Shown piece after piece: positions 1 to 64,000 of a DNA stretch of 64,000 nucleotides (the first letter of the stretch is position 1; each line of letters starts with the position of its first letter). Location: positions 84,184-148,183 of the IMG/VR virus record IMGVR_UViG_3300045988_116318. One strand, 5' to 3'. Source of the stretch: a virus. The position numbers and the translations under genes are program-made. Under the pieces are notes generated by a model, which had not been told where the DNA came from, made no database searches, and saw only the letters and a list, made by a program, of their open reading frames with translations.

Positions 1-654
1 AACTCTTATGTTACAGAAAGGGTTGAGATTACGAATGATGAACTTCTTAAGGCAGGTATAGATCCTTCGGTTGAGGAGCGTAATTATCCGGTGGATGGTT
101 ACAAATCAAGTTTTGGAACCTGTGATTTTGTAGATACCGGAAAGAAGGAAGGTTATTCTTATGATAAGTATCTTATAAGTAATGGCCTTCCCCGTTTGGC
201 TTCTAAGGCTGATGTTAAGAATGATCTTTATGATATAGTAAAGGTTCACGGTTCTTACCTTAAGCCAGAAGAAATGAATGTTGTTAAAACCCTTGTTGAT
301 AATTTTATTGACATGTCTGATAACATATCAGTTCAGTTGGAAGGAATGGATGATAGGGGTTCGAGAGAAGTAGCGGTCAATTTCTATGATAAAAGGACTA
401 AAAATTCTAAAAATCCTGCATTGTTGTTCTCGGATTTTGTTCCTTTGGATCCAGGTAATGATGAGTATGCGGATTACTGGAATAACATTCACCAGAAGTG
501 TCCTCAGTACTTCTTTGTAAAATACGTGAAGGAGGCTGTTCAAGAACGTCTTGATCAGATGAGAGATCCGTATATGAGAGGAATAAATATCATGCCCAAC
601 ATGAATGATAAGTTTAGCAAGTTGAACGATTTTTTGCAGAAAATTTATGGCTGA
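1..654 (+). CDS. hypothetical protein, 5'-partial (reading frame open to window edge; ATG at 91 is internal)
   Basis: Frame 1 has no stop from nt 1 to TGA 652-654. Stop overlaps start of next gene (ATGgcTGA), indicating translational coupling. Confidence 0.6.
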   Translation, partial: NSYVTERVEITNDELLKAGIDPSVEERNYPVDGYKSSFGTCDFVDTGKKEGYSYDKYLISNGLPRLASKADVKNDLYDIVKVHGSYLKPEEMNVVKTLVDNFIDMSDNISVQLEGMDDRGSREVAVNFYDKRTKNSKNPALLFSDFVPLDPGNDEYADYWNNIHQKCPQYFFVKYVKEAVQERLDQMRDPYMRGINIMPNMNDKFSKLNDFLQKIYG

Positions 655-9813: not shown

Positions 9814-9857
9814 TTTTTGTACATATATATAGTTTTTTTATAGTTATAATTTGGGAA

Positions 9858-9886
9858 GTGAGGCTTGTGAAAGTCTCACTTTTCTT
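9858..9886 (+). terminator. rho-independent terminator-like hairpin (GTGAGGCT-tgtgaa-AGTCTCAC) plus T-tract
   Basis: 8-bp stem with 6-nt loop followed by TTTTCTT, 45 nt after stop of 7555..9813 gene. A second AAAGT/ACTTT hairpin with T-tract lies at about 9920-9950. Confidence 0.5.
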
Positions 9887-15947: not shown

Positions 15948-16089
15948 GCTGAACTTGACGATTTTTCGTCAGATTATAATTTTTTCTCATATCATTTTTA
16001 AGCCATCAGACTGAGAAGTTAGATGGCTTTATTTTTTATGATATGCTTGATTTTTAACTACCTTTGTCTCATAACAAAAATGTTTTATC

Positions 16090-22536: not shown

Positions 22537-22755
22537 ACGAAGAATATCGGACTTGCATTGTTTTGGTATGATTCCAATATGCTATATTAGCATCGTCAAA
22601 GAGTAGATTGTACGTTTTTTGTTCTTACTTGAAAGATTATGTAGGTTTAATTTTTTCTGAAATTGTTTTCTTACCGGTTCTCAGTCAGGGATGATAGGGA
22701 ACCAGTTTCTTTTATGTTGTACCAAACAATTGCGATATGAGTTTAAATAAAAAAC

Positions 22756-29763: not shown

Positions 29764-30783
29764 TCATCGTTTTATCTTTTTAGACGGATCCCAATCCGAA
29801 GAGAAAGGGCATTCGTTTTTGTTATGTAATCCAAAGTCGCAATAATAACACAGTGCTGACGGGCAGGGTAGCTTGTTTTGCGAAACAGGCTGGCTTAGGG
29901 TGGCACGCCGCTTGCTATACCTGGCTCCTTCTGCTCCCTGGATGTACGCTTGAAATGATTTTACACTATTATCTTCAAAATCATACATTTTAGACAAAGT
30001 GTCATTTAGCATCTCTATAGATTTTGTTTTACGTTCCTCATCCACCTTAACCTTTTGGTACTGCCTGGTCCTGGTAAAGAAATAGATGTTCATATCTGGC
30101 AGAACTCCACCATATTTTCTATAGATGTAAAATGAATATATAGGATGCTGTAAATTTGTTTCCAACTTCTTAGAATCAAAAACCTTATTACCTGATTTCC
30201 AATCTATGACATAATGGTGAACTACGTTCTTGCTTTTTATAGCCAGATGAAGGTCTACCGATCCTACTATGTACACATGAGTATGAATTACTCCATTTAT
30301 GTTAACAGGCTTAGGAAGACGGTACGGTAGCACAAAATCCTCTTCGACTCCTATTATGGCACCGTGTCTGATGAGTTTCTCACAGGGATTAAGATCACTA
30401 TCAGCTATCATAAACCTATTCCCGTCTTTTTTAAATAGATCTACAATCCAAGCAAGAAGCTCTCCAGATTGCTTCATGGCTATCATCATATTTTCCGGTG
30501 ATTGCCAAGGTATGTCTTCCTGGTAAGCATAGTAACTTATTGCTTCTCCAAGGTCTTTACCAGAAGGCTGTCTTCCGTTCTTAAAAAAGTATTCCAGTGT
30601 CTTATGGATAACCGTACCATAAGACGTAGCTTCTTGTTTTTCCGTAGACCTTTTGCCCTCTACGTAAGTCTTATACCATTTCATTGGACAGGTAAGAAAC
30701 GTATCTATCTGGGAATAAGATATGGCAAGACGTTTTACACCATTAAACTCCTTATATAGCAAATGCGTTTCCGGGACCATCAT
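29764..30783 (-). CDS. Cas4/RecB-like PD-(D/E)XK exonuclease with predicted Fe-S cluster (339 aa)
   Basis: N-terminal SYSQIDTFLTCPMKWY. Motif VIDWKSGNK (DxK). C-terminal CPSALCYYCDFGLHNKNEC Cys cluster. Confidence 0.6.
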   Translation of the reverse strand: MMVPETHLLYKEFNGVKRLAISYSQIDTFLTCPMKWYKTYVEGKRSTEKQEATSYGTVIHKTLEYFFKNGRQPSGKDLGEAISYYAYQEDIPWQSPENMMIAMKQSGELLAWIVDLFKKDGNRFMIADSDLNPCEKLIRHGAIIGVEEDFVLPYRLPKPVNINGVIHTHVYIVGSVDLHLAIKSKNVVHHYVIDWKSGNKVFDSKKLETNLQHPIYSFYIYRKYGGVLPDMNIYFFTRTRQYQKVKVDEERKTKSIEMLNDTLSKMYDFEDNSVKSFQAYIQGAEGARYSKRRATLSQPVSQNKLPCPSALCYYCDFGLHNKNECPFSSDWDPSKKIKR

Positions 30784-31127
30784 AAGTCATTGTCTTTAAA
30801 TCCTTCCGGGTAATATACGACATACTTCTTACCGTCTTCTGGTGTCATGGCAAACTGCATGTAGTTATTACGATTACGATGCTTGCCATCTAATCCTCGC
30901 TTCCAATACAGAATCCCATCTATATCCACAGAAGACCGTCCGCGTTCGGCTCTAACTACGTCCGTGTGTAGCAGATACCCGTCGGAAGACACGATCCACA
31001 CTTTATCCCCTTTGTTTAAATAAGATATTCTTTTTCTTACAACAACCTTTTTCTTATTATCTAATGCAAATTCCTCATCGGTCATACTCTTCATCCTCCT
31101 CTTCTTCTGTTTCAAAATCAATTCCAT
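30780..31127 (-). CDS. hypothetical protein (115 aa)
   Basis: ORF. 4-nt overlap with upstream gene. Confidence 0.55.
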   Translation of the reverse strand: MELILKQKKRRMKSMTDEEFALDNKKKVVVRKRISYLNKGDKVWIVSSDGYLLHTDVVRAERGRSSVDIDGILYWKRGLDGKHRNRNNYMQFAMTPEDGKKYVVYYPEGFKDNDL

Positions 31128-31637
31128 ATCTCATATTCTATTAAATATATTTAAAGCTATTCATATGTTTTAATACATCCCCTCGGAGACCTTCCGGTCT
31201 CCTTGGTAGATGTAAATCCCGTTAGGGATAAGTCAGGATTTCTCCTGTAAGTACCCATCGCCAATGTTATAAGAGGTTTTATATAATGGCAACACTGTTT
31301 CGTCAAATACACTACTCCTGTTTAATCACCATCCTTAGAGCAAGAAACTTGGATAAACATTCCTTGGTAACTATTTATTCTCAAATAACGTAGCCTCTGT
31401 TTCAAGGCTTAGGCTAATAACCCGATCTCTGAAAGAGATGTATTAAACTTTTATAATAGAATTATATTGGGTTAATACTATTTGGGGTTATAACACCGAT
31501 CATAATGCTTGGTCAGTTCTTCTGGTTCTAAATCTTGTCCAAAATCCATGTTAAAAATATCGTAATTAGTAAAGCACTTAAAATCACTGTCCCTGCCGGC
31601 AGGAAATCTATGAATGCTGCTTTTGCTTCTTCAATTA

Positions 31638-31676
31638 GGCCCAAGTGTAACCTTGGGCCATTGTATTTATTTTTTG
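31638..31676 (+). terminator. GC hairpin (GGCCCAAG-loop-CTTGGGCC) followed by ATTGTATTTATTTTTTG; terminator-shaped in + orientation
   Basis: 8-bp stem and T-tract read on the + strand. Abuts the flotillin stop on the - strand, where no U-tract follows. Confidence 0.35.
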
Positions 31677-33367
31677 TCATCTCCTTTTAACTTCTTTAAA
31701 GTATCTGCAATCGGAAGCTGATCAATGACTCCCAATGCCGGAGCGACGGTCTTAACAACATTGTTAAGAAAATTACCGGTACTGTTCTGACCGCCGTCAA
31801 ATACCGTGATATTTCCGAGGTTAATGTGCTCAAATGCCTTAACCTGTTCTCCGGCAATTTCTTTCCACTGATTAACCATCTTGTACTGGATGGCGATCTG
31901 AGGATTGGATTCTGCTGCTTCCACCATAGCCTTAAATCCGTCGGCTTCTGCCATTAACGACTTTTTCTTACCTTCGGCTTCTGCCTCCAGTTTCATCTGA
32001 ATAGCCTTTGCCTCTGCCTCAGCTTTTGCCAAATGTGCTGCCGCCTCAGCCTCAGCCCGGCGTTTGATCTTCTCTGCCTCAGCATCAGCTTGTAATATAG
32101 CCTCTTCCTTCTGGGTTTCAGCCGGCACAATCTTTTCAGCCTTAAGCGCAGCCTGAACTTTCTTAGCCTTAGCTTCTTCCACTTCTTTGTCGGCAAGCTC
32201 TTTTGCTGTTTTTACAGCCGCTTCCGATTTAACTTTTTCTTCTCCGGCCTTCTTCTCTGATTGAGCTTTGATAATCTGTAGTTCTGATACTGACACAGCA
32301 ACCTCCTTCTGGGCATTGTTGTATCCTATAGACGCATTTTTCTCAGCCTCAGCCTTCTTAATCTGAGCTTCAGAGTCTTGTATTGCTATAGCTGCTTCCT
32401 TGTCAGCTTCAGCCTTATTCTTTCCGACTTCTTCCATCCTTTCAGCCTCGGCTTTATTTACTTCAAGTTCTGCCTTAGATCTTACAATCGCCGATTCCTT
32501 GTCGGTTAAAGTTTTTGCGATAACCGCAGCCCTGTCTCTATCTGCTTGAGCTACGCCGATCTGTTTCTCTTTATCGGTTAAAGCCAAGGCTATTTCTTTT
32601 TCTTTCTTCGTTTCAGCTACTATTGTTTCCTTTTCTTTTTCAGTACAAGCAATTTGAATCTCTTGTTCTTTTTTGGTATTAGCCACAGCCGTTTCTTTCT
32701 CCTTCTGCTGTACAGCAATCTTAATAGCACCCAGTTTCTCCTGTTCTTCGATATTAGCCTGTGCTTCGTTCAGAGCCCTACTTTCAGCCTCCTTACCAAG
32801 GTTCATAATATAACCGGCTTCGTCTCTGATGTCACTGATGTTGATGTTCAGGAGGTAAAGACCTAACTTGTTAAGCTCGTTATCAATGTTCTTTCTTGCC
32901 TTATCCAAAAACTCATCCCTGTCAGAATTAAGTTTTTCGATTGTCATTTCAGCAATAATCAAACGCATCTGACCGTAAACGATGTCCGTAATAAGATTTT
33001 CAGTAGATTCGGTATCCATTCCCAAAAGTCTTTCTGCCGCATTTTGCATGATCTCTGGATTTGTACTGATAGCTACTGTAATAGTCGTAGGAACATCTAC
33101 TCTAATATTCTGAGATGACAAAGCACCGGTAAGCTTGCAATCTATTTGCATAGGCTCCATTGACAAAACATCATAGCTTTGAATAATAGGCAAGACAAAT
33201 GCCGCTCCACCATGATATAATTTCGCCGATTTCTTTTCCCCACCTGTCTTACCATAAACGACCAAGACCTGATTAGGCTTACATCTACGATACCTTGATA
33301 AGACTCCGATGATTGTCAAAATAATCACTACAGCTAAGATAGCTGACACGTACATGATTGTTGTCAT
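31667..33367 (-). CDS. SPFH/band-7 flotillin-like membrane protein (566 aa)
   Basis: N-terminal TM helix, SPFH core, long Glu/Ala/Lys repeat coiled coil (AEAEAKAIQMKLEAEAEG etc) typical of bacterial flotillins (FloT/YqiK). Immediately downstream of an NfeD-like gene. Confidence 0.8.
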   Translation of the reverse strand: MTTIMYVSAILAVVIILTIIGVLSRYRRCKPNQVLVVYGKTGGEKKSAKLYHGGAAFVLPIIQSYDVLSMEPMQIDCKLTGALSSQNIRVDVPTTITVAISTNPEIMQNAAERLLGMDTESTENLITDIVYGQMRLIIAEMTIEKLNSDRDEFLDKARKNIDNELNKLGLYLLNINISDIRDEAGYIMNLGKEAESRALNEAQANIEEQEKLGAIKIAVQQKEKETAVANTKKEQEIQIACTEKEKETIVAETKKEKEIALALTDKEKQIGVAQADRDRAAVIAKTLTDKESAIVRSKAELEVNKAEAERMEEVGKNKAEADKEAAIAIQDSEAQIKKAEAEKNASIGYNNAQKEVAVSVSELQIIKAQSEKKAGEEKVKSEAAVKTAKELADKEVEEAKAKKVQAALKAEKIVPAETQKEEAILQADAEAEKIKRRAEAEAAAHLAKAEAEAKAIQMKLEAEAEGKKKSLMAEADGFKAMVEAAESNPQIAIQYKMVNQWKEIAGEQVKAFEHINLGNITVFDGGQNSTGNFLNNVVKTVAPALGVIDQLPIADTLKKLKGDDKK

Positions 33368-55960: not shown

Positions 55961-56413
55961 TTAAATAGTTCTTAATTTTTCTTCGATAAATTCATCTATT
56001 ACATCATAGTATGATCCATCAAAATCACAATTCCCATATTTCTCTGTAAACTCTTTGTTCCACTCTTGAATGATGTTAAATGCCTCTTCCCTACTACATT
56101 CTTTTAGTCTCATTAGATCATCTACGGCTGTCACCGACATCTCTTGCAGATTTCGTAAATAATTCAAATCTATGCTATATGGTAGCTTACCTACTTCTAT
56201 ACATACATGATGATCTTGTTTAAAGGCATCCTGCAAGTCTTCAAGACTCTCTATCAATGACTCGGACTCATCATCTACCCTCACCTTGTATAACTCAAAA
56301 TCTTCATTTTCTGCCGACACCCATATCTTGTAGGCTTTTTCGTTGGACAATCTTTTCCAAACAAATCCGTCACTGAACACAATTAGGCTACCTGTTACTA
56401 TCGTTTCTTTCAT
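55961..56413 (-). CDS. hypothetical protein (150 aa)
   Basis: GAGGAGG RBS upstream. Confidence 0.55.
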   Translation of the reverse strand: MKETIVTGSLIVFSDGFVWKRLSNEKAYKIWVSAENEDFELYKVRVDDESESLIESLEDLQDAFKQDHHVCIEVGKLPYSIDLNYLRNLQEMSVTAVDDLMRLKECSREEAFNIIQEWNKEFTEKYGNCDFDGSYYDVIDEFIEEKLRTI

Positions 56414-56694
56414 TTTTCTTCCTCCTCATTATCCCATCCTAAACAAGAATCTAAATGTGAAATAAAAATTGTAGCTCCCTTATTTTCTTCTACAGTAGGA
56501 TACTCTACCTCATAATAGTCAAATTCAGAGCTCTCTAATCCGACCCTATCTTCATCCCATCCATTTTTGGTTCCATCCTCTGCCATTTCTTTAAGTTTTT
56601 CCAAAGCCTCTTCTGGTGTTTCTGCTTCAATGGATAATCTATCTTTCATCCATCCATAAACCCTTCTTTCTACTTCAAATATAAATTCTTTCAT
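56410..56694 (-). CDS. hypothetical acidic protein (94 aa)
   Basis: ORF. Confidence 0.5.
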   Translation of the reverse strand: MKEFIFEVERRVYGWMKDRLSIEAETPEEALEKLKEMAEDGTKNGWDEDRVGLESSEFDYYEVEYPTVEENKGATIFISHLDSCLGWDNEEEEK

Positions 56695-56734
56695 TTCGCT
56701 ATTTTTTTTTGTTTATTATATTTCACATCTTGTA

Positions 56735-57055
56735 TCAAACAACCTCCTTGGAAGTATTATTTAATGGTGATTCCTTCAATCTCTTTAGATTAAATCCTAT
56801 CATATTCCCACACTGTGGACACTTAAAACCATAAGGTTCACTAACCATCCTGTCACTTCTGTTGCACATCATACAGTATGGGCGCCATCCGTCATACCAT
56901 GTCCCTCCCTTGGCTTCCTTCAATCTTCTCAACTTTTCTTTTTCTGGAAGATCTATATTCTGTTTTAGTGTTTCCATTAATCTGTTGTTTACCGTGATAA
57001 TATCAATATCTGAGACATCAAAACATAATACAGCTATTTTGATTTTCGCTTCCAT
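56735..57055 (-). CDS. Zn-ribbon protein (106 aa)
   Basis: CMMCNRSDRMVSEPYGFKCPQCGNM. Confidence 0.5.
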   Translation of the reverse strand: MEAKIKIAVLCFDVSDIDIITVNNRLMETLKQNIDLPEKEKLRRLKEAKGGTWYDGWRPYCMMCNRSDRMVSEPYGFKCPQCGNMIGFNLKRLKESPLNNTSKEVV

Positions 57056-57243
57056 GATTGTTTATTGTTCTACATCAATAATCCCATACTCTGCTACTTC
57101 CAACACATCCTGCACTATTTCCGGATAGTCAGTCGTATCTAACGAAGCATCTTGAACGTATGCTTCCGCTAATTTCTTGGCTTCTTCAAACGATTCGGCT
57201 TGTATATATAAATCAAGCGTCAATGAAAACGGATATAACATAG

Positions 57244-57558
57244 CTAATCTGTTATTCTGTAATAATAATCAAGTTCTTCTCCCTTAAAGTTGTTCATGGC
57301 ATATTCGTCAGCTTCCCTCCACAACCGGTCATACAATGCAGCCAGTTCACGATTGCTTTCATAATGCTGCCAGATTTTATGATTCAATACCAGCGTCAAT
57401 TCTGTAAAGAACTTATAATCGTCTTTCCATTCGCTAAACGCACGTTTGTAGGTATCTTTGACACCTGCTATACCATACTTGTCGGCTATGCTGAAATCCT
57501 CCCAAAAGGTAGTCATCAGGTCATAGCCGACTTCTTGCATAAATTCTCGAAATGTCAT
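57244..57558 (-). CDS. hypothetical protein (104 aa)
   Basis: ORF. Confidence 0.5.
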   Translation of the reverse strand: MTFREFMQEVGYDLMTTFWEDFSIADKYGIAGVKDTYKRAFSEWKDDYKFFTELTLVLNHKIWQHYESNRELAALYDRLWREADEYAMNNFKGEELDYYYRITD

Positions 57559-57631
57559 AAGCTATTATTTTAGGTATATAATTGCCTTATCTTATCAATG
57601 ATCTCTTCCTTATGCCAGGGCGGGCGCCGCC

Positions 57632-57820
57632 TTACTCCGGCTGTTCCACCCACTCCCTGTATCCTACGTTAAAACCAATAGGATCATACCTTTTGATCAT
57701 AGTACCATAATTCTCTCTACCACAATACCTGTTTTCCCCTCCAATGATCCATGCCTCATCGTCTCTATCTGGAGATATTGAGTTAAGAAACTTCTCATAA
57801 TCTTTTCTGCTCTTTCCCAT
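57632..57820 (-). CDS. hypothetical protein (62 aa)
   Basis: ORF. Confidence 0.35.
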   Translation of the reverse strand: MGKSRKDYEKFLNSISPDRDDEAWIIGGENRYCGRENYGTMIKRYDPIGFNVGYREWVEQPE

Positions 57821-58166
57821 CTTTGTCTTGATTTAAACAATAGTTAATAAAATAAGCAACCTGTTCATTTTCCCCTGTATTATCATAATCACCTAAAGTC
57901 ATATCATCATAATCCAGCAGAACTATACGAAAATCGTTTTTTTTGACATACACCTCCGTTAAAAACATAGGAATCCCATTAATTTCTATTATCACCGGAA
58001 ACTGATCATCAAAGTCAAACGCATCATTAGTTTCTTTAAACTCTTTAAATTTTAGCTTTATAATTCCATTGTTTTCTGCTAATGCTTCTTTGATGTACTT
58101 TAATCTTTTTGCATTCAGACTGACCTCTGCTTCTTCTATTTCTTTATACAATTTATTTAGATCCAT
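57795..58166 (-). CDS. hypothetical acidic protein (123 aa)
   Basis: ORF. Confidence 0.5.
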   Translation of the reverse strand: MDLNKLYKEIEEAEVSLNAKRLKYIKEALAENNGIIKLKFKEFKETNDAFDFDDQFPVIIEINGIPMFLTEVYVKKNDFRIVLLDYDDMTLGDYDNTGENEQVAYFINYCLNQDKDGKEQKRL

Positions 58167-58678
58167 ATTCCACTATATTCCACTATATTTATGTTATCGA
58201 ATTTTTCTTTTATAATATCCAAGACTCCGTACTCGTTTGTTATCATAGCATGCATCCCTGGCTTCATTCTCCACAGATTAAAATACCTTGTCACATTCAT
58301 AGTGGCATTAAATAATGATATTTCATATCTTGTGTTTCCATTTTTATCACGCCCTATGTTTTTAATATAACATATGTCTGGCTTGTATTTGAAATAATTA
58401 AAAAGCCTATACCATCCCTTCCCGTTACATGTTTCACAATTCCATATTCCAGCAAGCCTCCTGTATCCCCTTACTGGTATTTTCTCTATTTCTTTTGGCA
58501 TGATTTCAATATACTTTCCTTCTCCGATTGGTATGGTCATATTACCTGCCTCTTCAGTGCAAAAGTATTCTATTTCAGATGCCATTCCTTTATACACATA
58601 GAACCGGTATAAGTTCCCGTCAGGGTCTACCCGATCCATGTAATATAATATCACTTTATCTACTTTTATATTTTTCAT
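58157..58678 (-). CDS. hypothetical protein (173 aa)
   Basis: ORF. Contains WNCETCNGKGWY. Confidence 0.55.
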   Translation of the reverse strand: MKNIKVDKVILYYMDRVDPDGNLYRFYVYKGMASEIEYFCTEEAGNMTIPIGEGKYIEIMPKEIEKIPVRGYRRLAGIWNCETCNGKGWYRLFNYFKYKPDICYIKNIGRDKNGNTRYEISLFNATMNVTRYFNLWRMKPGMHAMITNEYGVLDIIKEKFDNINIVEYSGIWI

Positions 58679-58926
58679 TCTTTTATTCTCCTTATCTTTA
58701 AATTGTTATTCCCACAGTATTCCTTCAACCAACTATCCGTTAGATAACGATTAACTCTATCGTATTTCTTTTTCGGACCCTTGCTCCAGAATTTCCATTC
58801 GTTTGTGATATTGTCCCCATATTTATCAAACCAATAAATATAATACACTACGTTACCGTATAAATCTACTCTTTTTCTTTCCTGTATGACTACCTCGTAA
58901 GGCATCTTCTTGTCTCTTTTCTCCAT
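58675..58926 (-). CDS. hypothetical protein (83 aa)
   Basis: ORF. Confidence 0.45.
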   Translation of the reverse strand: MEKRDKKMPYEVVIQERKRVDLYGNVVYYIYWFDKYGDNITNEWKFWSKGPKKKYDRVNRYLTDSWLKEYCGNNNLKIRRIKE

Positions 58927-59004
58927 CTTTGTCCTCCTTTCTTGAATAAAAAAAACGGCACCTATCTTCGCAGACCAGTGCCGGTAACTAACTTACATGG
59001 AAAA

Positions 59005-59409
59005 CTACTTAACCTCAACTAATTCTACAGAGCTGTAGAATTTAGTGAAGCTACCAACAAATTCTCTTATATTTTTATATTCTTCTGGTCGTTTTCTGTT
59101 ACCGTCTTTTATATAATTTACCCACAGTCTATCTTCTATGCTCTTAATCGCATTTTCTATAGTAAATTCGTCGCTGACACACATTAAACACGAAGACCCT
59201 GTTTTCTTATGTGGTTTATATACCCTTGAAAAAGACCACATTTTTATCCTGTCATATATATATCCATTGTTTGGATAAACGAATCCTATCCGGCTGTCAC
59301 CTTCTTTGGCGTAAAACACACCTGGCTCCTTCCCACCCTTTCTATATACTACAAATCCTTTTTCTTTTAGGATCTTAACTATCTTATTTATCTTGTTCTC
59401 TACGTTCAT
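59005..59409 (-). CDS. hypothetical protein (134 aa)
   Basis: ORF. Confidence 0.5.
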   Translation of the reverse strand: MNVENKINKIVKILKEKGFVVYRKGGKEPGVFYAKEGDSRIGFVYPNNGYIYDRIKMWSFSRVYKPHKKTGSSCLMCVSDEFTIENAIKSIEDRLWVNYIKDGNRKRPEEYKNIREFVGSFTKFYSSVELVEVK

Positions 59410-59866
59410 TGTAATGCAAGTATTTAAAAACTACCCTCATTATAGTTGCGAAGTTCTCTACCTTAACCCACTCATGAGCCACTGCTCTAAGTACAGACGT
59501 TTCATATGTTGGAATATTATCTTCTTCAACCACCTTACAAGAAGCCAGAACTCCTTCGGTCGGCTTTAGTCCACGGTCATGCAGCTCGCAGAGACCGTCT
59601 GGCCGGCGGAATGCGCACCACCCGTCTTTCTCTGTCGGCTGGATCATCGCTATTGGTTTTTCTTTCACTGCAAGATACCCTACCATCCACATTGTTTCTT
59701 TTAACCTATCAGCGTATCCGGCATCTATGATAGCCTCTATGTCTTTTGGCGTACCAATACAAGGAACCTTACACATGTTCTTGCATTTATCACATGTACA
59801 AGGTTGCTCCCATCTATTATGATCTATGCCTACCAACTTCTTTATCCGTTCTACTTCCTCTTTCAT
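59384..59866 (-). CDS. YkgJ-family (CxxCxxCC) Cys-cluster protein (160 aa)
   Basis: CTCDKCKNMC then WCAFRRPDGLCELHDRGLKP, matching C.fl...G.C.iy..RP..Cr of the UPF0153/YkgJ family. Confidence 0.5.
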   Translation of the reverse strand: MKEEVERIKKLVGIDHNRWEQPCTCDKCKNMCKVPCIGTPKDIEAIIDAGYADRLKETMWMVGYLAVKEKPIAMIQPTEKDGWCAFRRPDGLCELHDRGLKPTEGVLASCKVVEEDNIPTYETSVLRAVAHEWVKVENFATIMRVVFKYLHYNERREQDK

Positions 59867-59867
59867 G

Positions 59868-60149
59868 TCACACTTCTTTCGTTAGTTTATCATAATATGC
59901 TTTCAATTCCGGTGAAGCATATTCCATAAATGCCTCAAATAAACATGGTACTTCTACTATCGCGTATATAGCGCACCCTTTCATCGTTGAAAGCTGTTCA
60001 AGATCATTACTGTACAGGCACGTAACATAAGCACCTACATTAAATACATGTAAATCTATCCTTACGTATTCCATACATAAAGATAATGACTTAAACAAAT
60101 CCTTTACATCATTCTTATCAAAGAGTTCTACAAATTCTCTCAATTTCAT
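59868..60149 (-). CDS. hypothetical protein (93 aa)
   Basis: ORF. Confidence 0.45.
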   Translation of the reverse strand: MKLREFVELFDKNDVKDLFKSLSLCMEYVRIDLHVFNVGAYVTCLYSNDLEQLSTMKGCAIYAIVEVPCLFEAFMEYASPELKAYYDKLTKEV

Positions 60150-60529
60150 CTTACTACCCTTTCCACGTGTTTAATTAATACTACTGCCATCCCTTTGCCG
60201 GTTTTTATCGCACATTCCGATCCTTTTATCCATTCTACACATCCTACATACTTTTCTGTAGAATGAAAACCTGGATTGTATTTCCCGGATGTACTAAACT
60301 CTACCGTATCCCCTACCTTCAGATCCTCAAAAGCAATAGCCCATGTGGTCCAAATTCTATCATGTCTTCCAGGCTGAATGGCTCCGATTACGCCTTTCTT
60401 ACGACCGTTTTTTATTGCCTTTAGTATTATCTTTCTATCACCTTCAATAAGGCTGCAAAAACGCCCATAAAAGGTCAAATCAACCTGTTTTCCTCCTATT
60501 TCTTCTCTTATTTTTGTTATTCTGTTCAT
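60146..60529 (-). CDS. hypothetical protein (127 aa)
   Basis: ORF. Confidence 0.5.
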   Translation of the reverse strand: MNRITKIREEIGGKQVDLTFYGRFCSLIEGDRKIILKAIKNGRKKGVIGAIQPGRHDRIWTTWAIAFEDLKVGDTVEFSTSGKYNPGFHSTEKYVGCVEWIKGSECAIKTGKGMAVVLIKHVERVVR

Positions 60530-60773
60530 TTTCTGATTTTGTTTTATTTTTTTCTTTGTTTTTTCTATCTTCTATAGAAGATGATAATAACATTATCTTT
60601 TCTATGTTACTTTTTGACTGTAAAAAAGAATCGCATTTCATTACTACTACGATCTTCTTAAGTTCTCCATTATCATACAGCGATACACGCATCATGTTTG
60701 GCACCTCGTCCACTATCAGACCTGGAGTAGTCTTAGCCATTTTACGTAGCTTATTATACTCCGGTCTTTCCAT
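60480..60773 (-). CDS. hypothetical protein (97 aa) with basic Asn/Lys/Arg tail
   Basis: ORF. 50-nt overlap with downstream gene. Confidence 0.4.
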   Translation of the reverse strand: MERPEYNKLRKMAKTTPGLIVDEVPNMMRVSLYDNGELKKIVVVMKCDSFLQSKSNIEKIMLLSSSIEDRKNKEKNKTKSENEQNNKNKRRNRRKTG

Positions 60774-61038
60774 TTCCTCTGTTGATTACTCTATAGTATT
60801 TATCTTTATCCCCCTCTTCTAACTTCTCCAGATAGAAAATCCCATCATGCAAATGAGATAAGCAAAACCGGTATCCGTATTTCTGCGTTCTTCTTACATG
60901 ATCCCGCAATCTTATTTCTTCACTTTTGTCTTGTACTTTGATCTTAATACTGTCTCCTTCTTTGATTGTGTATAAAATAGTTTGAATCTCTTCCTTTTTC
61001 ATATTATAAAATAATTTAACGGCAGCACCTATACTCAC
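60754..61038 (-). CDS. hypothetical protein (94 aa)
   Basis: ORF. Confidence 0.45.
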   Translation of the reverse strand: MSIGAAVKLFYNMKKEEIQTILYTIKEGDSIKIKVQDKSEEIRLRDHVRRTQKYGYRFCLSHLHDGIFYLEKLEEGDKDKYYRVINRGNGKTGV

Positions 61039-61065
61039 GCACTACTACTGCCTTATGTTTAACAA

Positions 61066-61290
61066 TTAAATACTTAACTCTTCAATGGTCAAGCCTTTTT
61101 CTTTTACCCACTTTAGCATCGCGCATAATTCTGTTTCTGACTTATATTTCGGATCACGCCACGCCCATCCGAATTTATCCAGGACATGATGATATAACCG
61201 TGTAAATGTCTTTGAATAAATGCTCCGAACCTTCCGGTATAAGTGTTTCCGTTGTTGCAAAATCGGAATACGACAAACATCCGTAAGCAT
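61066..61290 (-). CDS. hypothetical protein (74 aa), overlaps 61175..61861 by 116 nt
   Basis: ORF only. Fills a gap but conflicts with the upstream gene's 3' end. Confidence 0.25.
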   Translation of the reverse strand: MLTDVCRIPILQQRKHLYRKVRSIYSKTFTRLYHHVLDKFGWAWRDPKYKSETELCAMLKWVKEKGLTIEELSI

Positions 61291-61861
61291 ATTCTGTTAT
61301 TTCACTCCACGCTTCTCTGGCTTTAAATCCAAATTCTTTTACAAAAGCCAAAGTTAGATACATATTTAATAATATTGTTACATCATATCCGGAATCCGAC
61401 TTTCTTTCTATTATTTCCTTTTCAAATTCCTTTAAATCTTCAGGCCCTAAAAAGATGTATCCTGATACCGACCGGTAATTAGCCTCCGCATACTTCTTGC
61501 ATTTATCATCATTGACAATCTTACCAATGTTAGATAACATCTTTTGCCTCCATTCATCACAAAACTCTACCTCTACGTTCATCCAATCAGTACCATAATT
61601 ATATTCTTTCGGATATCCGACCGATGTTACCTTTATGTTATTCACGCCATATCCGTAAAGGCGTTCACTTACCTCATTCGCCCATTCCTGTACAAAAGGA
61701 ATAAACTTATTGCAATAAGAATCAAAATCAAAATCCGATTCTTCCTCATATTCCGGCATCTCTTCATAATCTTGTTCAAAGAAATGACGAGGATCTGCTA
61801 TTGTTTCATAGAAACTTACGCTGATGAAACAAAACTCGTTGGTTGTCGTTTTTAATATCAT
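61175..61861 (-). CDS. hypothetical protein (228 aa)
   Basis: ORF. Confidence 0.6.
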   Translation of the reverse strand: MILKTTTNEFCFISVSFYETIADPRHFFEQDYEEMPEYEEESDFDFDSYCNKFIPFVQEWANEVSERLYGYGVNNIKVTSVGYPKEYNYGTDWMNVEVEFCDEWRQKMLSNIGKIVNDDKCKKYAEANYRSVSGYIFLGPEDLKEFEKEIIERKSDSGYDVTILLNMYLTLAFVKEFGFKAREAWSEITEYAYGCLSYSDFATTETLIPEGSEHLFKDIYTVISSCPG

Positions 61862-62112
61862 AGCTTTTTGTATTTACGTACATTTTTCTTGCCATAGAAT
61901 CTACACATGGCACGAATCTGACTATAAAATACTTTTGTCCTCCTGGCCTCAAAGTATTTAAACATTTCTTCATTCTTTGTTTCCCACACGTAATCCGTTT
62001 GGGAACTCATGCGATCTTTCTCCTTGCGTGAATAATGGTAATATGATACCACAACACGTTTCATACCATTCTTTACAGGTACGATATTTACGTCTATACT
62101 ATTCTCTGTCAT
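61858..62112 (-). CDS. hypothetical basic protein (84 aa)
   Basis: ORF. Confidence 0.45.
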   Translation of the reverse strand: MTENSIDVNIVPVKNGMKRVVVSYYHYSRKEKDRMSSQTDYVWETKNEEMFKYFEARRTKVFYSQIRAMCRFYGKKNVRKYKKL

Positions 62113-62231
62113 ATTATTATTGTTTTATGCATTATACAAATACAAAGAGCGCATACCTTCACAGGCCGGCGCTCCTTTCAATAAAAATGAAAAAACTAAT
62201 ATTACATAAACATATTGTTTTCTACTCTTTA

Positions 62232-62465
62232 TTACAATACTTTTGTTCCGCAATTATTATATCTTCCGTACTCTTTTTTCGTATCATTCAAGATTTCAAA
62301 AACCATCTTCTTGTGATCTTCGTTTGGTAACCTATCCTTAACAGCCGATATTACGCCCGCTATAGACGTAAAGCCTGAATCTGTTATTGAACACAGCAAC
62401 ACGCCTCTGTCGGCTCCGGTGCTTATCGCTGACGCCTTTATAATATCATTCTTATATATTCTCAT
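62232..62465 (-). CDS. hypothetical protein (77 aa)
   Basis: ORF. Confidence 0.45.
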   Translation of the reverse strand: MRIYKNDIIKASAISTGADRGVLLCSITDSGFTSIAGVISAVKDRLPNEDHKKMVFEILNDTKKEYGRYNNCGTKVL

Positions 62466-62485
62466 AACTTTTTTGTTTTATTGTT

Positions 62486-62581
62486 TGTGAGATGCCCAGA
62501 ATCGAACCAGGACCGGCACATACGCACCGGCACGCCGCGTCATCCCCTCTATGATACAGAAATAGGCATGCCTATCCTCAC
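62486..62581 (-). ncRNA. tRNA-like structured element 1 (T-arm-like hairpin GGTTCGATTC with closing stem GTGAGGA / ATCTCAC); not a canonical tRNA
   Basis: The - strand RNA would read GTGAGGATAGGCATGCC...GGTCCTGGTTCGATTCTGGGCATCTCACA. The T-loop-like TTCGATT and a 6/7-bp terminal stem are conserved with element 2. No canonical D or anticodon arm could be folded by eye. Confidence 0.25.
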
Positions 62582-62640
62582 GAACCGACATGCCAAAACC
62601 CAAAACTTAATTTGATGAATAAAATAGATTAACAAAAATA

Positions 62641-62955
62641 CTATTCTAATTCTTTTATAATATCTTTCACAATATTCAGCCTTACCTCCTTCGTTTCTGG
62701 ACTAATACAACCAAACCACCCATAAAACTTTCTTGTTTCCTCTGGTTCTGTGGCCATACTTATCTTCTCCTCCAATTCCGGGAAATATATTCTCACCATT
62801 TCGTCTGAACGAAACTCATAGATATTTTTATGTGTTTTGAAATACATAAACACTGCATTTCTTAACGCAACACATATGTATTCCCCATCCTCTAACCTAT
62901 CAATCATCTCATATACCTTTTTCCATATGAATAATCGCTCTTCTTTTGTAAACAT
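62641..62955 (-). CDS. hypothetical protein (104 aa)
   Basis: ORF. Confidence 0.5.
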   Translation of the reverse strand: MFTKEERLFIWKKVYEMIDRLEDGEYICVALRNAVFMYFKTHKNIYEFRSDEMVRIYFPELEEKISMATEPEETRKFYGWFGCISPETKEVRLNIVKDIIKELE

Positions 62956-62969
62956 ATCCTTCTTTATTT

Positions 62970-63311
62970 TTATGGTATTATTTGACTGTATGCAGACTTT
63001 TCCATGTACACAATATTATGCTCCTGTCCAAATATCTTCTTTGCCGCCTCTTTCTTTATCGCACAATATCTTCCTGTACGATACGGATTCTTTTGATCTG
63101 ATCCATCTTCAACCTCGATAATAAAACAACCACCATCATCTATTATCTTTTTGCAATCGTCACATACTCCGCCCGTGCATATATGATGCGGCGCCTGACC
63201 TTTGATATTATTTCCTAATAAAGCAATGCCCATCTCTGCACCACATATCATGCAGACTTCTATAGACGGATTCAATCCGTGTTCTGGATGTAATGTAATA
63301 CCATTTTTCAT
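62970..63311 (-). CDS. Zn-binding Cys/His-rich protein (113 aa)
   Basis: CMICGAE...HHICTGGVCDDCKK. AAAGGAGG RBS upstream. Confidence 0.55.
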   Translation of the reverse strand: MKNGITLHPEHGLNPSIEVCMICGAEMGIALLGNNIKGQAPHHICTGGVCDDCKKIIDDGGCFIIEVEDGSDQKNPYRTGRYCAIKKEAAKKIFGQEHNIVYMEKSAYSQIIP

Positions 63312-63339
63312 TTTCTTTCCTCCTTTGTTTTTAATGTTG

Positions 63340-63465
63340 TGTGAGATCGCCGGAATCGAACCGACCTACTGCACCATGAATCCCATAAAGCAAATACTCC
63401 GATCTTCGCAGACGGGAGCATTCTGTCTAAAGCATAAGAAAATTAATGAAGAAAATCTTCCTCAC
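63340..63465 (-). ncRNA. tRNA-like structured element 2 (GTCGG-TTCGATT-CCGGC hairpin; same GTGAGGA / ATCTCAC terminal stem); not a canonical tRNA
   Basis: The - strand RNA would read GTGAGGAAGATTTTC...GGTCGGTTCGATTCCGGCGATCTCACAC, with a long AT-rich insert after the 5' arm. It abuts the stop codon of a 26-aa ORF. Confidence 0.25.
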
Positions 63466-63546
63466 TTACGCCATAGCATCTAAAATAGCTATCAACACTA
63501 TTTCTATGACAAGCATAATAGAGAATGTCTTAAATATCTTTTTCAT
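63466..63546 (-). CDS. 26-aa hydrophobic peptide (MKKIFKTFSIMLVIEIVLIAILDAMA), not in ORF track
   Basis: Strong AAGGAGGAG RBS 5 nt upstream of ATG 63546. Single predicted TM helix. Confidence 0.3.
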   Translation of the reverse strand: MKKIFKTFSIMLVIEIVLIAILDAMA

Positions 63547-63654
63547 ATCTCCTCCTTTTTTTATCTGTTCTTTTCACGTTCCACAATAAACTGTTCCGGC
63601 TCTGCCCTGGCCTACGCTCCACCTACAACCGCAGGCCTTAGCCCAAGGCGCCGC

Positions 63655-63924
63655 CTACTCCCCCTCTATGGCAGCCTGTTCGTACACACAAGTCCAGTCT
63701 CCATCTACACAACTAACACTACGCGATAACAAACATTTATCCTTATAACAATCATAAAAAATACACCTCTCACAACCGTAATCCTTAACGTCTACACAGC
63801 GAACTACCTTAGCATATACTATACCATCACTGCCTTCTATTCCTTTCACCACAAAAATAGAACCTTCTACTTCTTTACTCAAATCTAAATCGGGTGCAAA
63901 ATCATATACGTTCATACCATCCAT
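63655..63924 (-). CDS. Cys-rich small protein (89 aa)
   Basis: CVDVKDYGCERCIFYDCYKDKC...CVDGDWTC. Confidence 0.5.
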   Translation of the reverse strand: MDGMNVYDFAPDLDLSKEVEGSIFVVKGIEGSDGIVYAKVVRCVDVKDYGCERCIFYDCYKDKCLLSRSVSCVDGDWTCVYEQAAIEGE

Positions 63925-64000
63925 ATTTTAATTGTTAAACATTTCACTTACTACTAACATATAGAATACCGTTTTAAACGACTTATCTATTGAATTTTGT

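What the first reader, a model, noticed from the sequence alone, without database searches (positions are those of the whole stretch)
62486..63546. Two paralogous tRNA-T-arm-like structured elements in early-gene intergenic spaces
Two intergenic segments, 62486-62581 and 63340-63465, are about 850 bp apart. On the - strand both end with a T-arm-like hairpin (GGTCCTGG TTCGATT CTGGG and GGTCGG TTCGATT CCGGC). Both are closed by the same terminal helix 5' GTGAGGA ... ATCTCAC(A) 3' (five Watson-Crick pairs plus a G:T wobble). This looks like a tRNA acceptor stem plus T-arm with no encoded CCA. I could not fold a D-arm or anticodon arm in either copy. Element 2 has a 30-nt AT-rich insertion and starts right at the stop codon of a 26-aa membrane peptide that has a perfect RBS. 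They may be degenerate or intron-containing tRNAs, tRNA-like decoys or mimics, att-site remnants, or a new structured RNA family. The same GTGAGG...CTCAC inverted repeat also forms the terminator hairpin at 9858-9886.
Basis: seen in the sequence. Interest (0 to 1): 0.55.

Follow-up and report, generated by a model that had tools for sequence, protein, structure and literature searches.

The report
Hairpin plus stripped-down tRNA-like elements
The two segments are real, conserved, tRNA-derived RNA elements, each a capped hairpin followed by a tRNA-like unit that lacks the anticodon arm. The same two-part module occurs in many gut phages, where it probably marks cutting points in multi-gene transcripts.

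Summary
The sequences are at the stated coordinates on the minus strand, and both T-arm hairpins are real. In element 1 that GTGAGGA lies inside the cap of a 30-nt GNRA-capped hairpin (62594-62565). The same kind of hairpin occurs in many unrelated phage contigs, and its stem covaries strongly.

Each element is a two-part module. First comes the hairpin. Then comes a tRNA-like unit with no anticodon arm: a 6-7 bp acceptor-like helix stacked directly on the T-arm. In E1 this helix is GGGAUG/CAUCUC; in E2 it is (U)GGGAUU/GAUCUC(A). An "AC" and an A-rich leader follow, and the next start codon lies 23-30 nt downstream.

The same hairpin sits 1-11 nt upstream of genuine tRNAs, including this phage lineage's own tRNA-Arg and a Crassvirales tRNA-Glu. 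It also precedes about 20 unrelated mini tRNA-like units. ARAGORN and Rfam find nothing at E1 or E2.

Both elements vary less than synonymous sites. No host tRNA shares their 3' end.

Most likely they work like plant mitochondrial t-elements or mascRNA: host RNase P and RNase Z cut the transcript, and the hairpin protects the upstream 3' end. That function is inferred, not shown.

The parts
62565..62594 (-). E1 hairpin: stem GGCAUGUC/GGCAUGCC plus cap GGUUC-GUGA-GGAUA (GNRA loop, G.U wobble, G.A mismatch).
   Evidence: CM R1 scores it 38.3 bits, E=1.7e-9. This sequence is in the seed. The family stem covaries. It is kept in 36 distinct relatives, 99.8% of cells paired.
62547..62564 (-). E1 U-rich linker UAUUUCUGUAUCAUAGAG between the hairpin and the tRNA-like unit
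   Evidence: This linker is longer than the 3-7 nt seen in other families.
62541..62546 (-). E1 acceptor-like 5' strand GGGAUG
   Evidence: Pairs with 62494-62489. RNAalifold chooses this helix, as does RNAfold. In L016, G:C became A:U here.
62512..62540 (-). E1 connector that replaces the D and anticodon arms. It includes the hairpin GCCGGUGC-GUAU-GUGCCGGU (62531-62512), which is deleted in some relatives.
   Evidence: 98.6% of cells paired. L039 and L070 carry 14-nt deletion variants.
62495..62511 (-). E1 T-arm CCUGG-UUCGAUU-CUGGG
   Evidence: 99.4% of cells paired; variants CCCGG/CCGGG and UCUGG/CCAGG.
62489..62494 (-). E1 acceptor-like 3' strand CAUCUC, directly abutting the T-stem
62466..62488 (-). 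E1 tail ACAAACAAUAAAACAAAAAAGUU. It starts with the discriminator-like A and C and forms an A-rich leader to the ATG of the 77-aa ORF at 62465.
   Evidence: In relatives the downstream gene cassettes change just after this tail.
63393..63422 (-). E2 hairpin: stem AAUGCUCC/GGAGUAUU plus cap CGUCU-GCGA-AGAUC
   Evidence: Two pairs show compensatory changes (A:U to G:C in 15 sequences, U:A to C:G in 4). The descriptor scan finds it. CM R1, built without it, gives only 11.8 bits, E=0.64.
63379..63385 (-). E2 acceptor-like 5' strand UGGGAUU, preceded by the linker UGCUUUA (63392-63386)
   Evidence: Pairs with 63348-63342. In L059 three changes on the 3' strand all keep these pairs.
63349..63378 (-). 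E2 13-nt connector CAUGGUGCAGUAG (63378-63366) and T-arm GUCGG-UUCGAUU-CCGGC (63365-63349)
   Evidence: T-stem 100% of cells paired; variant GCUGG/CCGGC.
63312..63348 (-). E2 acceptor-like 3' strand GAUCUC(A) (63348-63342) and tail CACAACAUUAAAAACAAAGGAGGAAAGAAA leading to the ATG of the 113-aa ORF at 63311
   Evidence: Nucleotide diversity (pi) is 0.009-0.014.
63423..63465 (-). Conserved AT-rich segment upstream of the E2 hairpin. Role unknown; possibly a decayed copy of the hairpin cap.
   Evidence: pi is 0.033. GTGAGA is replaced by GTAATA in L033 with no change on the 3' side.
63466..63546 (-). 26-aa hydrophobic ORF whose stop codon abuts the segment above
   Evidence: pi is 0.039.
58955..58984 (-). 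Further copy of the GNRA-capped hairpin (cap GGUCU-GCGA-AGAUA), followed by U7 and not by a tRNA-like unit
   Evidence: CM R1 25.9 bits, E=1.7e-5
61022..61051 (-). Further copy of the hairpin class (cap AGUGC-GUGA-GUAUA), intergenic
   Evidence: CM R1 17.5 bits, E=0.009
62146..62175 (-). Further copy of the hairpin class (cap GGCCU-GUGA-AGGUA), intergenic, with a U-rich stretch after it
   Evidence: CM R1 15 bits, E=0.06

Best explanation
Each element is a two-part cis-acting RNA module, transcribed with the minus-strand genes.

Part 1 is a 30-nt hairpin. It has an 8-bp stem of free sequence under a conserved cap: four pairs including a G.U wobble, an N.A mismatch, and a GNRA tetraloop.

Part 2 is a tRNA-like unit with no anticodon arm. 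A 6-7 bp acceptor-like helix stacks directly on a canonical T-arm. A short connector contains a GG and, in E1, an extra hairpin. The unit ends in an unpaired "AC" like the phage's own CCA-less tRNAs.

Inferred mechanism: host RNase P cuts at the 5' side of the tRNA-like unit and RNase Z cuts at its 3' side. The upstream message would then end at the protective hairpin. The downstream message would start with a short A-rich leader 23-30 nt before its start codon. This is tRNA punctuation, as in plant mitochondrial t-elements and MALAT1/mascRNA.

Shown: the anatomy, the conservation, the family membership and the link to genuine tRNAs.
Inferred: transcription, cleavage, and the role of the hairpin.
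For: Hairpin:
- Across 25 sequences from many phages, 93% of cells are paired, 10 of 12 pairs change on both sides, and 0 of 500 shuffles reach this.
- Among 169 cap matches taken without filtering, 121 have 8 of 8 stem pairs.
- G.U outnumbers A.C by 74 to 22 in 83 unique hairpin stems, which points to RNA on this strand.
- The window holds 8 such hairpins against 0.42 expected. All are intergenic and on the coding-sense strand.

Link to tRNAs:
- The hairpin lies 1-11 nt upstream of ARAGORN-called tRNAs in many contigs.
- This includes tRNA-Arg of this phage lineage (L002 762-791, tRNA at 797) and tRNA-Glu of a Crassvirales genome.

tRNA-like unit:
- About 20 clusters of non-tRNA units that share little sequence have the same layout.
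- RNAfold recovers the closing helix in 18 of 21 representatives, against a null rate of 0.42 (p=4e-5).
- The best-run test gives a Fisher combined p of 1.8e-5. The 5' strand starts 3-7 nt after the hairpin in all but the E1-type elements, where it starts at 18 nt.
- Compensatory variants occur between related elements: GGGACG/CGUCCC, GGGGCG/CGCCCC, GGGAAG/CUUCCC; CGCCCA/UGGGCG and CGCCCG/CGGGCG.
- RNAalifold on the E1 family gives the hairpin plus GGGAUG/CAUCUC.

Selection: pi is 0.014 for the E2 unit, 0.048 for the E1 unit and 0.04-0.05 for the hairpins, against 0.11 at third codon positions of the flanking ORFs.

Context:
- In 13 of 22 representatives an ORF starts 9-34 nt after the unit.
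- The phage's real tRNAs also lack CCA and are followed by C.
- The only Rfam resemblance is a sub-threshold mascRNA hit to one relative.
- t-elements were found by the same GGTTCRANYCC motif and are cut by RNase P/Z (PMC1920247).
Against: - There is no expression or cleavage data.
- Within the E1 and E2 families, variation is mostly wobble-compatible single changes.
- Each closing helix is individually weak against composition-preserving shuffles (p 0.01-0.5). MFE folding does not recover it in E2.
- The stack is 11 layers in E1 and 11-12 in E2, against 12 in a tRNA.
- RNAalifold did not predict the E1 T-stem.
- A stable hairpin 1-11 nt upstream of a cleavage site is not a known RNase P requirement, so its conserved cap remains unexplained.
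- In the window the hairpins are followed by U-rich stretches, so they may be plain terminators.
Confidence: 0.45

Rival explanations
1. The released tRNA-like units are the functional product. They would be stable small RNAs that act in trans as tRNA mimics. For example, they might receive CCA, bind or soak up host tRNA-binding enzymes, or act as decoys for defence systems that attack tRNA acceptor ends.
For: - The acceptor/T-arm stack is the part of a tRNA kept under selection.
- E1 and E2 both carry a G:U at the third acceptor pair (read from the sequence).
- The units are widespread and multi-copy in phages that also carry real tRNAs.
Against: - The G:U is lost in close relatives (A:U, G:C), so it is not a conserved alanine identity mark.
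- The units sit tightly upstream of start codons in 13 of 22 cases, which suggests a cis role.
- No abundance or CCA data exist.
Confidence: 0.15
2. They are decaying tRNA pseudogenes sitting next to ordinary terminator hairpins. They would have no RNA function, and their conservation would reflect only how recently the genomes diverged.
For: - A third element just outside the window resembles the phage's tRNA-Cys 3' end.
- Partial tRNAs occur in the family (L124, L181).
- Variation within each family is too low to prove selection on pairing.
- The hairpins in the window are followed by U-rich stretches.
Against: - The elements vary 2-8 times less than synonymous sites next to them.
- About 20 clusters that share little sequence keep the same reduced layout: acceptor helix and T-arm present, anticodon arm lost.
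- The T-loop is almost invariant in about 200 copies.
Confidence: 0.15
3. They act mainly at the DNA level. They would be short conserved linkers at which recombination swaps the downstream gene cassettes, like the PeSL promoter/stem-loop cassettes of T4-type phages.
For: - In csAssE-Sib an extra ORF of about 400 bp lies immediately 3' of each element.
- Spacing between the two elements falls into classes (about 854, 1195, 1249, 2209 bp).
- The same downstream cassette start follows E1 in many genomes and E2 in one.
- PeSLs are described in PMC2839356 and PMC4122927.
Against: - This does not explain the strand-specific G.U bias, the covarying stems or the link to genuine tRNAs.
- It is compatible with, rather than an alternative to, an RNA function.
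Confidence: 0.1
4. One reading: a 96-nt and a 126-nt RNA, each closed by the acceptor-like helix GUGAGG/UCUCAC, with the T-arm two nucleotides inside it.
For: - Six complementary positions are present in both elements.
- They are kept in 98.9-99.1% of cells in relatives.
- Folding of truncated E1 picks this helix.
Against: - In E1 the 5' strand is the loop and cap of the hairpin. With the full hairpin included, RNAfold and RNAalifold choose the other helix.
- Among 12 other family members the cap is never this complementary to the 3' end; the best run is 2-5.
- The helix is broken in L016, L033 and L059.
- "GU..AC" of the pairing comes from two motifs that are conserved for other reasons: the GUGA loop and the AC tail.
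Confidence: 0.05
5. The module is a 5'-UTR regulator of the downstream gene. For example, a leaky terminator might be coupled to a tRNA-like domain that binds a host or phage factor controlling read-through, stability or translation.
For: - The module is close to start codons.
- U-rich stretches follow the window's hairpins.
- The 46-nt spacer 62595-62640 upstream of the E1 hairpin is invariant.
- The conserved cap suggests a binding partner.
Against: - No alternative (antiterminator) pairing is supported. The GACAUGCC variant disfavours the one candidate I examined (sequences; my reading).
- The same hairpin precedes ordinary tRNAs with no U-stretch.
Confidence: 0.1

Closest known systems
Plant mitochondrial t-elements (tRNA-like processing signals; Forner et al. 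2007, PMC1920247)
   Same: They are non-canonical tRNA-like structures recognised by the GGTTCRANYCC T-arm motif. They lie between or next to protein genes, and their ends define mRNA 5' and 3' ends through RNase P and RNase Z. Stem-loops take part in forming the ends.
   Different: Those are organellar elements with mapped ends. Here the elements are in phage genomes, nothing is mapped, and a sequence-conserved GNRA-capped hairpin is coupled upstream.
mascRNA / MEN-beta tRNA-like RNA (Rfam RF01684)
   Same: A tRNA-like unit with a defective anticodon arm sits immediately downstream of a structure that protects the 3' end. RNase P cleavage creates the 3' end of the upstream RNA. This is the only Rfam family with any resemblance: 14.2 bits, E=4.5, to relative L129.
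   Different: That family is eukaryotic and nuclear, and the protective structure is a triple helix rather than a hairpin. The score is far below the gathering threshold of 42.5, so there is no homology.
tmRNA tRNA-like domain
   Same: The topology is the same: acceptor 5' strand, then an insert, then the T-arm, then the acceptor 3' strand. There is no anticodon arm. E1 and E2 have a G:U at the third acceptor pair.
   Different: There is no tag reading frame, no pseudoknots and no encoded CCA. The size is 43-59 nt, not about 350 nt. ARAGORN finds no tmRNA. The G:U is not conserved.
PeSL cassettes of T4-type phages (PMC2839356, PMC4122927)
   Same: These are repeated regulatory stem-loop cassettes between small accessory genes, and gene cassettes are gained, lost or swapped at them.
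   Different: PeSLs are promoter plus terminator motifs with no tRNA-like part. No promoter has been established here.
Canonical phage tRNA genes
   Same: The T-loop, the acceptor/T stacking and a CCA-less 3' end followed by C are shared. The same upstream hairpin is present, in the same phage lineage (L002).
   Different: There is no anticodon arm and no D-stem. Neither ARAGORN nor the Rfam tRNA model detects them.

Membership tests
Canonical tRNA | Cloverleaf with D-arm and anticodon arm, detectable by ARAGORN or the Rfam tRNA model | tested here: not met
   ARAGORN finds 0 genes in the window. Rfam finds nothing at E<=10 in 62300-63750. Only 13 nt (E2) or 29 nt (E1) lie between the acceptor strand and the T-arm.
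Canonical tRNA | T-arm: 5-bp stem ending in G53:C61 and a 7-nt loop UUCRANY | tested here: met
   The arms are CCUGG-UUCGAUU-CUGGG and GUCGG-UUCGAUU-CCGGC. They are 99.4-100% paired in relatives.
tmRNA | Tag-peptide reading frame, pseudoknots, and detection by ARAGORN | tested here: not met
   ARAGORN finds no tmRNA. The units are only 43-59 nt long.
Bacterial Y RNA-like (YrlA) and other Rfam tRNA-like families | A match to the Rfam covariance model | tested here: not met
   Searches give no such match.
t-element-like tRNA punctuation signal | A GGTTCRANYCC motif inside a non-canonical tRNA-like fold, with an acceptor-like helix next to the T-arm | tested here: met
   Support for the acceptor-like helix is collective (p about 1e-5 across families) and weak for any single element.
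t-element-like tRNA punctuation signal | Lies between co-oriented protein genes in one transcript | tested here: inconclusive
   The position and orientation fit. Co-transcription was not tested.
t-element-like tRNA punctuation signal | Element ends coincide with mapped RNA ends, and RNase P/Z cut there | not testable with these tools
   No transcript data or enzymology are available.
GNRA-capped hairpin + tRNA(-like) module of phages (defined here) | An 8-bp free-sequence stem under the cap N-G-N-N-N-GNRA-N-N-N-U-A, with three Watson-Crick or wobble pairs, G2.U13 and N1.A14 | tested here: met
   E1 scores 38.3 bits but is in the seed. E2 passes the descriptor scan except that C replaces A at position 14. 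E2 scores only 11.8 bits, E=0.64, under a model built without it, so E2 membership by score is inconclusive.
GNRA-capped hairpin + tRNA(-like) module of phages (defined here) | A T-arm-bearing unit starts a few nt downstream on the same strand and ends in an unpaired AC | tested here: met
   The E1 linker is 18 nt, longer than the usual 3-7 nt. The E2 linker is 7-8 nt. Both units end in ...CUC-AC.
Intrinsic (Rho-independent) terminator (hairpin part only) | A G+C-rich hairpin followed directly by a U-run | tested here: inconclusive
   58955-58984 is followed by U7, and 16000-16029 by UAUUUUUU. E1 and E2 have only U-rich stretches. The simple scan did not call any of the minus-strand copies in 56000-64000, the only region scanned. 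Copies upstream of tRNAs lack a U-run.
attP / tRNA 3'-end integration site | A host tRNA gene with an identical 3' part | tested here: not met
   The 22-nt pattern, scanned over 185,579 species genomes, gave 3 stretches, none a tRNA. One is a contig carrying this phage's own sequence.

The most novel reading that the evidence does not exclude
The GNRA-capped hairpin plus tRNA or mini-tRNA is an undescribed, widespread RNA module of gut phages, including Crassvirales. A dedicated host or phage factor would read its conserved cap (G.U wobble plus N.A mismatch under a GNRA loop). The anticodon-less tRNA-like units would be a new class of functional tRNA mimics. They would serve either as bacterial-virus "t-elements" that punctuate transcripts or as released decoys for tRNA-directed enzymes or defences.
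Probability: 0.35. Interest if true: 0.75.

Novelty: new variant of a known kind. Interest (0 to 1): 0.6.

Why it matters
If the module is a processing signal, tRNA punctuation would extend from organelles and a few eukaryotic long non-coding RNAs to tailed phages. It would give a simple sequence rule for predicting transcript boundaries in uncultivated gut phages.

The conserved hairpin cap is a concrete handle for finding the factor that binds it.

There is also an annotation consequence. In GenBank record OR575929 the counterpart of E1 lies inside a CDS called "hypothetical protein" (locus L001 2541-2699), which is probably wrong. Gene callers and tRNA finders miss this class altogether.

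Finally, the elements mark the points where accessory gene cassettes are exchanged between related phages.

Tried and rejected
- ARAGORN and Rfam, at gathering score and at E<=10, found nothing at E1 or E2.
- Single-sequence folding is not better than shuffles: z = -0.7 for E1 and -2.05 for E2.
Including the full hairpin corrected this.
- The att-site idea was rejected after the genome scan.
- The two ORFs inserted after E1 and E2 in csAssE-Sib are not paralogues and have no Pfam domain, so there is no mobile-gene signature.
- I considered a switch in which the 3' strand of the E1 hairpin pairs with GGCGUGCC in the connector. I dropped it because the GACAUGCC variant favours the hairpin (sequences; my reading).
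- I considered sarcin-ricin-loop mimicry by the cap. I dropped it because positions 4:11 covary as a normal pair.
- Counts within the E1 and E2 families cannot separate the two closing helices.
- A MAFFT alignment across families put the acceptor strand out of register, so I built no covariance model of the full module.
- The simple promoter/terminator scan was uninformative.
- Literature searches for the motif strings, for csAssE-Sib and for phage mini-tRNA-like elements found nothing relevant.
- BLAST of module sequences against GenBank phages found mostly generic tRNA similarity, plus one Crassvirales genome that carries the hairpin.
Full report
**What is there**

The window is about 93% identical to the 151-kb gut phage csAssE-Sib (OR575929) over this region. 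Genes from about 22.9 kb to 64 kb run on the minus strand.

They lie between small minus-strand ORFs. The exact T-loop 10-mer GGTTCGATTC occurs only at these two places, 854 bp apart. With one mismatch allowed, that motif is not rarer than chance (2 found, 4.0 expected), so the sequence alone proves little. ARAGORN finds no tRNA or tmRNA in the window. Rfam finds nothing at either element at gathering score or at E<=10.

**Relatives**

Nearly all are close relatives carrying both elements.

- Spacing between the two elements falls into classes (about 854, 1195, 1249, 2209 bp).
- In csAssE-Sib an extra ORF of about 400 bp sits directly 3' of each element. The two inserted ORFs are unrelated to each other and have no Pfam domain.
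- Gene cassettes therefore change just after the element tails. One genome has the "E1-type" cassette behind E2.
- No bacterial genome among 185,579 species representatives has a tRNA ending in this sequence. That argues against an attachment-site remnant.
- Relatives show a third T-arm element about 1.8 kb upstream of E2, beyond the end of the window. It resembles the phage's tRNA-Cys 3' end. A genuine Met-Gln-Arg-Cys tRNA cluster lies about 9 kb upstream.

**The key turn**

Looking for more distant copies, I scanned for GTGAGRATA followed by GGTTCGA.

The motif is a hairpin. Its cap reads GGUUC-GUGA-GRAUA: a GNRA tetraloop closed by C:G, U:R and U:A, then a G.U wobble and a G.A mismatch. The cap sits on a 7-8 bp stem whose sequence differs completely between phages. 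In the window this is GGCAUGUC|GGUUCGUGAGGAUA|GGCAUGCC at 62594-62565.

- Across 25 diverse examples, 93% of cells are paired, 10 of 12 pairs change on both sides, and no shuffle of 500 reaches this. I chose these examples from hits with at least 5 of 8 stem pairs.
- Among 169 cap matches taken without filtering, 121 had 8 of 8 stem pairs.
- G.U outnumbers A.C by 74 to 22 in the stems of 83 unique hairpins, as expected for an RNA hairpin on this strand.

**Other copies of the hairpin in the window**

I built a covariance model from 22 hairpins. Run on the window with filters off, it scores:

| Position | Strand | Bits | Note |
|---|---|---|---|
| 62565-62594 | - | 38.3 | E1 hairpin; this sequence is in the seed |
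| 58955-58984 | - | 25.9 | |
| 61022-61051 | - | 17.5 | |
| 22675-22704 | + | 16.8 | |
| 16000-16029 | + | 15 | |
| 62146-62175 | - | 15 | |
| 63393-63422 | - | 11.8 | central hairpin of E2, E=0.64 |

A simple descriptor scan finds eight such hairpins against 0.42 in shuffles. All are intergenic, all are on the coding-sense strand, and all are followed by U-rich sequence.

The E2 hairpin (AAUGCUCC|CGUCU-GCGA-AGAUC|GGAGUAUU) has the same design. It also shows clean compensatory changes among relatives: A:U to G:C in 15 sequences and U:A to C:G in 4.

**The tRNA-like part**

The same hairpin lies 1-11 nt upstream of tRNAs that ARAGORN accepts. Examples include tRNA-Arg in this phage lineage's own cluster (L002 762-791, tRNA starting at 797) and tRNA-Glu of a Bohxovirus (Crassvirales) genome.

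It also precedes about 20 clusters of non-tRNA units that share little sequence. Most of these share one layout:

- a 6-7 bp helix closes the unit, and its 5' strand usually starts 3-7 nt after the hairpin;
- its 3' strand abuts the T-stem, or is separated from it by one layer;
- a 12-35 nt connector replaces the D and anticodon arms. It has a GG a few nt after the 5' strand and often a small hairpin;
- the unit ends in an unpaired "AC" followed by A-rich sequence.

In the window this gives:

- E1: GGGAUG (62546-62541) pairs with CAUCUC (62494-62489).
- E2: UGGGAUU (63385-63379) pairs with GAUCUCA (63348-63342).

Support for this helix is collective rather than individual.

- MFE folding recovers it in 18 of 21 representatives, against a null rate of 0.42 (p=4e-5).
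- A best-run test gives a Fisher combined p of 1.8e-5, although single elements give p of only 0.01-0.5.
- Related elements show compensatory variants: GGGACG/CGUCCC, GGGGCG/CGCCCC, GGGAAG/CUUCCC; CGCCCA/UGGGCG and CGCCCG/CGGGCG.
- RNAalifold on 37 E1 sequences returns the hairpin plus GGGAUG/CAUCUC. It does not return the T-stem.

Within the E1 and E2 families both closing helices are kept in about 99% of cells, and the shuffle controls are not exceeded. These data cannot separate them.

  - Its 5' strand in E1 is the loop and cap of the hairpin.
  - No other family member shows comparable complementarity between cap and 3' end.
  - L016, L033 and L059 break it. L016 and L059 keep the alternative helix, through a G:C to A:U double change in L016 and three compatible changes in L059.
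- How the complementarity could arise: much of it comes from two motifs conserved for other reasons, the GUGA loop and the AC tail.

**Selection and context**

| Region | Nucleotide diversity (pi), 28 relatives |
|---|---|
| E2 tRNA-like unit | 0.014 |
| E2 tail | 0.009 |
| E1 tRNA-like unit | 0.048 |
| Hairpins | 0.037-0.052 |
| Third codon positions, flanking ORFs | 0.11 |
| First and second codon positions | 0.02-0.06 |

Length changes in a G-run and 14-nt deletions rule out a conserved reading frame across E1. Even so, the GenBank relative annotates a CDS there.

An ORF starts 9-34 nt after the unit in 13 of 22 representatives. The distance is 23 nt for E1 and 30 nt for E2. The phage's genuine tRNAs also lack CCA and are followed by C.

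**Interpretation**

The anatomy is that of a tRNA reduced to the part that RNase P, RNase Z and the CCA-adding enzyme recognise. That recognition is established knowledge of these enzymes, not something tested here. An upstream hairpin is coupled to it.

The closest working analogues are plant mitochondrial t-elements, which were found by the same GGTTCRANYCC motif and shown to direct RNase P/Z cuts that form mRNA ends (PMC1920247). Another analogue is the MALAT1/mascRNA arrangement. The only Rfam resemblance, to a relative and far below threshold, is to mascRNA.

I therefore favour transcript punctuation, at about 0.45. Host RNase P and RNase Z would excise the unit. The hairpin would protect or define the upstream 3' end. 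The downstream gene would receive a short A-rich leader.

The alternatives are: trans-acting tRNA mimics or decoys; decaying pseudogenes next to terminators; DNA-level recombination linkers like the PeSLs of T4-type phages (PMC2839356); and a 5'-UTR regulator. Several of these are compatible with each other. None of the functional steps is shown. The reason for the conserved cap is unexplained.

**Verdict**

- The proposed fold and boundaries are probably wrong.
- It is a new variant of a known kind (tRNA-like processing elements). It is not in Rfam 15, and I did not find it in the literature I could search.

Noticed in passing
window 31247-31491 (-): There is a HEARO RNA match (RF02033, 95.2 bits; this is the IscB-associated omega RNA family). 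No IscB-sized ORF lies downstream on the same strand. The next ORFs are a 115-aa ORF (30780-31127) and a PD-(D/E)XK nuclease (29764-30783).
   Followed up: partly
window 62595-62640 (-): The 46-nt spacer between the 104-aa ORF and the E1 hairpin (UAUUUUUGUUAAUCUAUUUUAUUCAUCAAAUUAAGUUUUGGGUUUU) is invariant in 28 distinct relatives (pi=0.000). That is more conserved than the flanking coding sequence. It may be a promoter or a binding site.
   Followed up: no
window 63590-63700 (-): A segment of about 70% G+C lies between the 89-aa ORF and the 26-aa ORF in an otherwise 37% G+C region. Unlike E1 and E2 it is variable among relatives (pi about 0.16).
   Followed up: no
window 9854-9883, 16000-16029, 22675-22704 (+); 58955-58984, 61022-61051, 62146-62175 (-): These are six further GNRA-capped hairpins of the same design. 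All are intergenic, on the coding-sense strand and followed by U-rich sequence. None has a tRNA-like unit after it.
   Followed up: partly
L002 7790-7890 (relatives; about 1.8-1.9 kb beyond window position 64000 on the minus strand): A third T-arm element (UUCGG-UUCGAUU-CCGGA, then GCAACCUCUAAA) has a 3' end resembling the phage's tRNA-Cys. A degenerate copy of the hairpin cap (CGUACAGGAUAGG) lies inside its acceptor-like helix. ARAGORN does not call it.
   Followed up: partly
window 63940-64000 (-) and L002 8830-8990: In relatives, the roughly 950-bp non-coding region upstream of the 89-aa ORF holds three tandem copies of a unit of about 52 nt (ACAAAAUUCAAUAGAUAAGCGUUUUAAAACAGUGUUCUGUAGAUCAUUUCC). 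The window ends inside one copy. This may be an origin or an early control region.
   Followed up: no
L001 (OR575929) 2541-2699 and 1464-1868, 2711-3136: GenBank annotates a 52-aa "hypothetical protein" across the E1 counterpart. Two extra ORFs (134 and 141 aa, no Pfam hit, unrelated to each other) are inserted directly 3' of E2 and E1 compared with the window.
   Followed up: partly
L064 (relative), E1 hairpin: A tandem duplication of half the hairpin: GGCATGTC-cap-GGCATGTC-cap-GGCATGCC.
   Followed up: no
window 647-6931 and 16090-22536 (+); 31667-33367 (-): Two very large ORFs (2094 and 2148 aa) have no Pfam match at E<=0.001. Separately, there is a phage-encoded SPFH/flotillin-like protein of 566 aa.
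   Followed up: no
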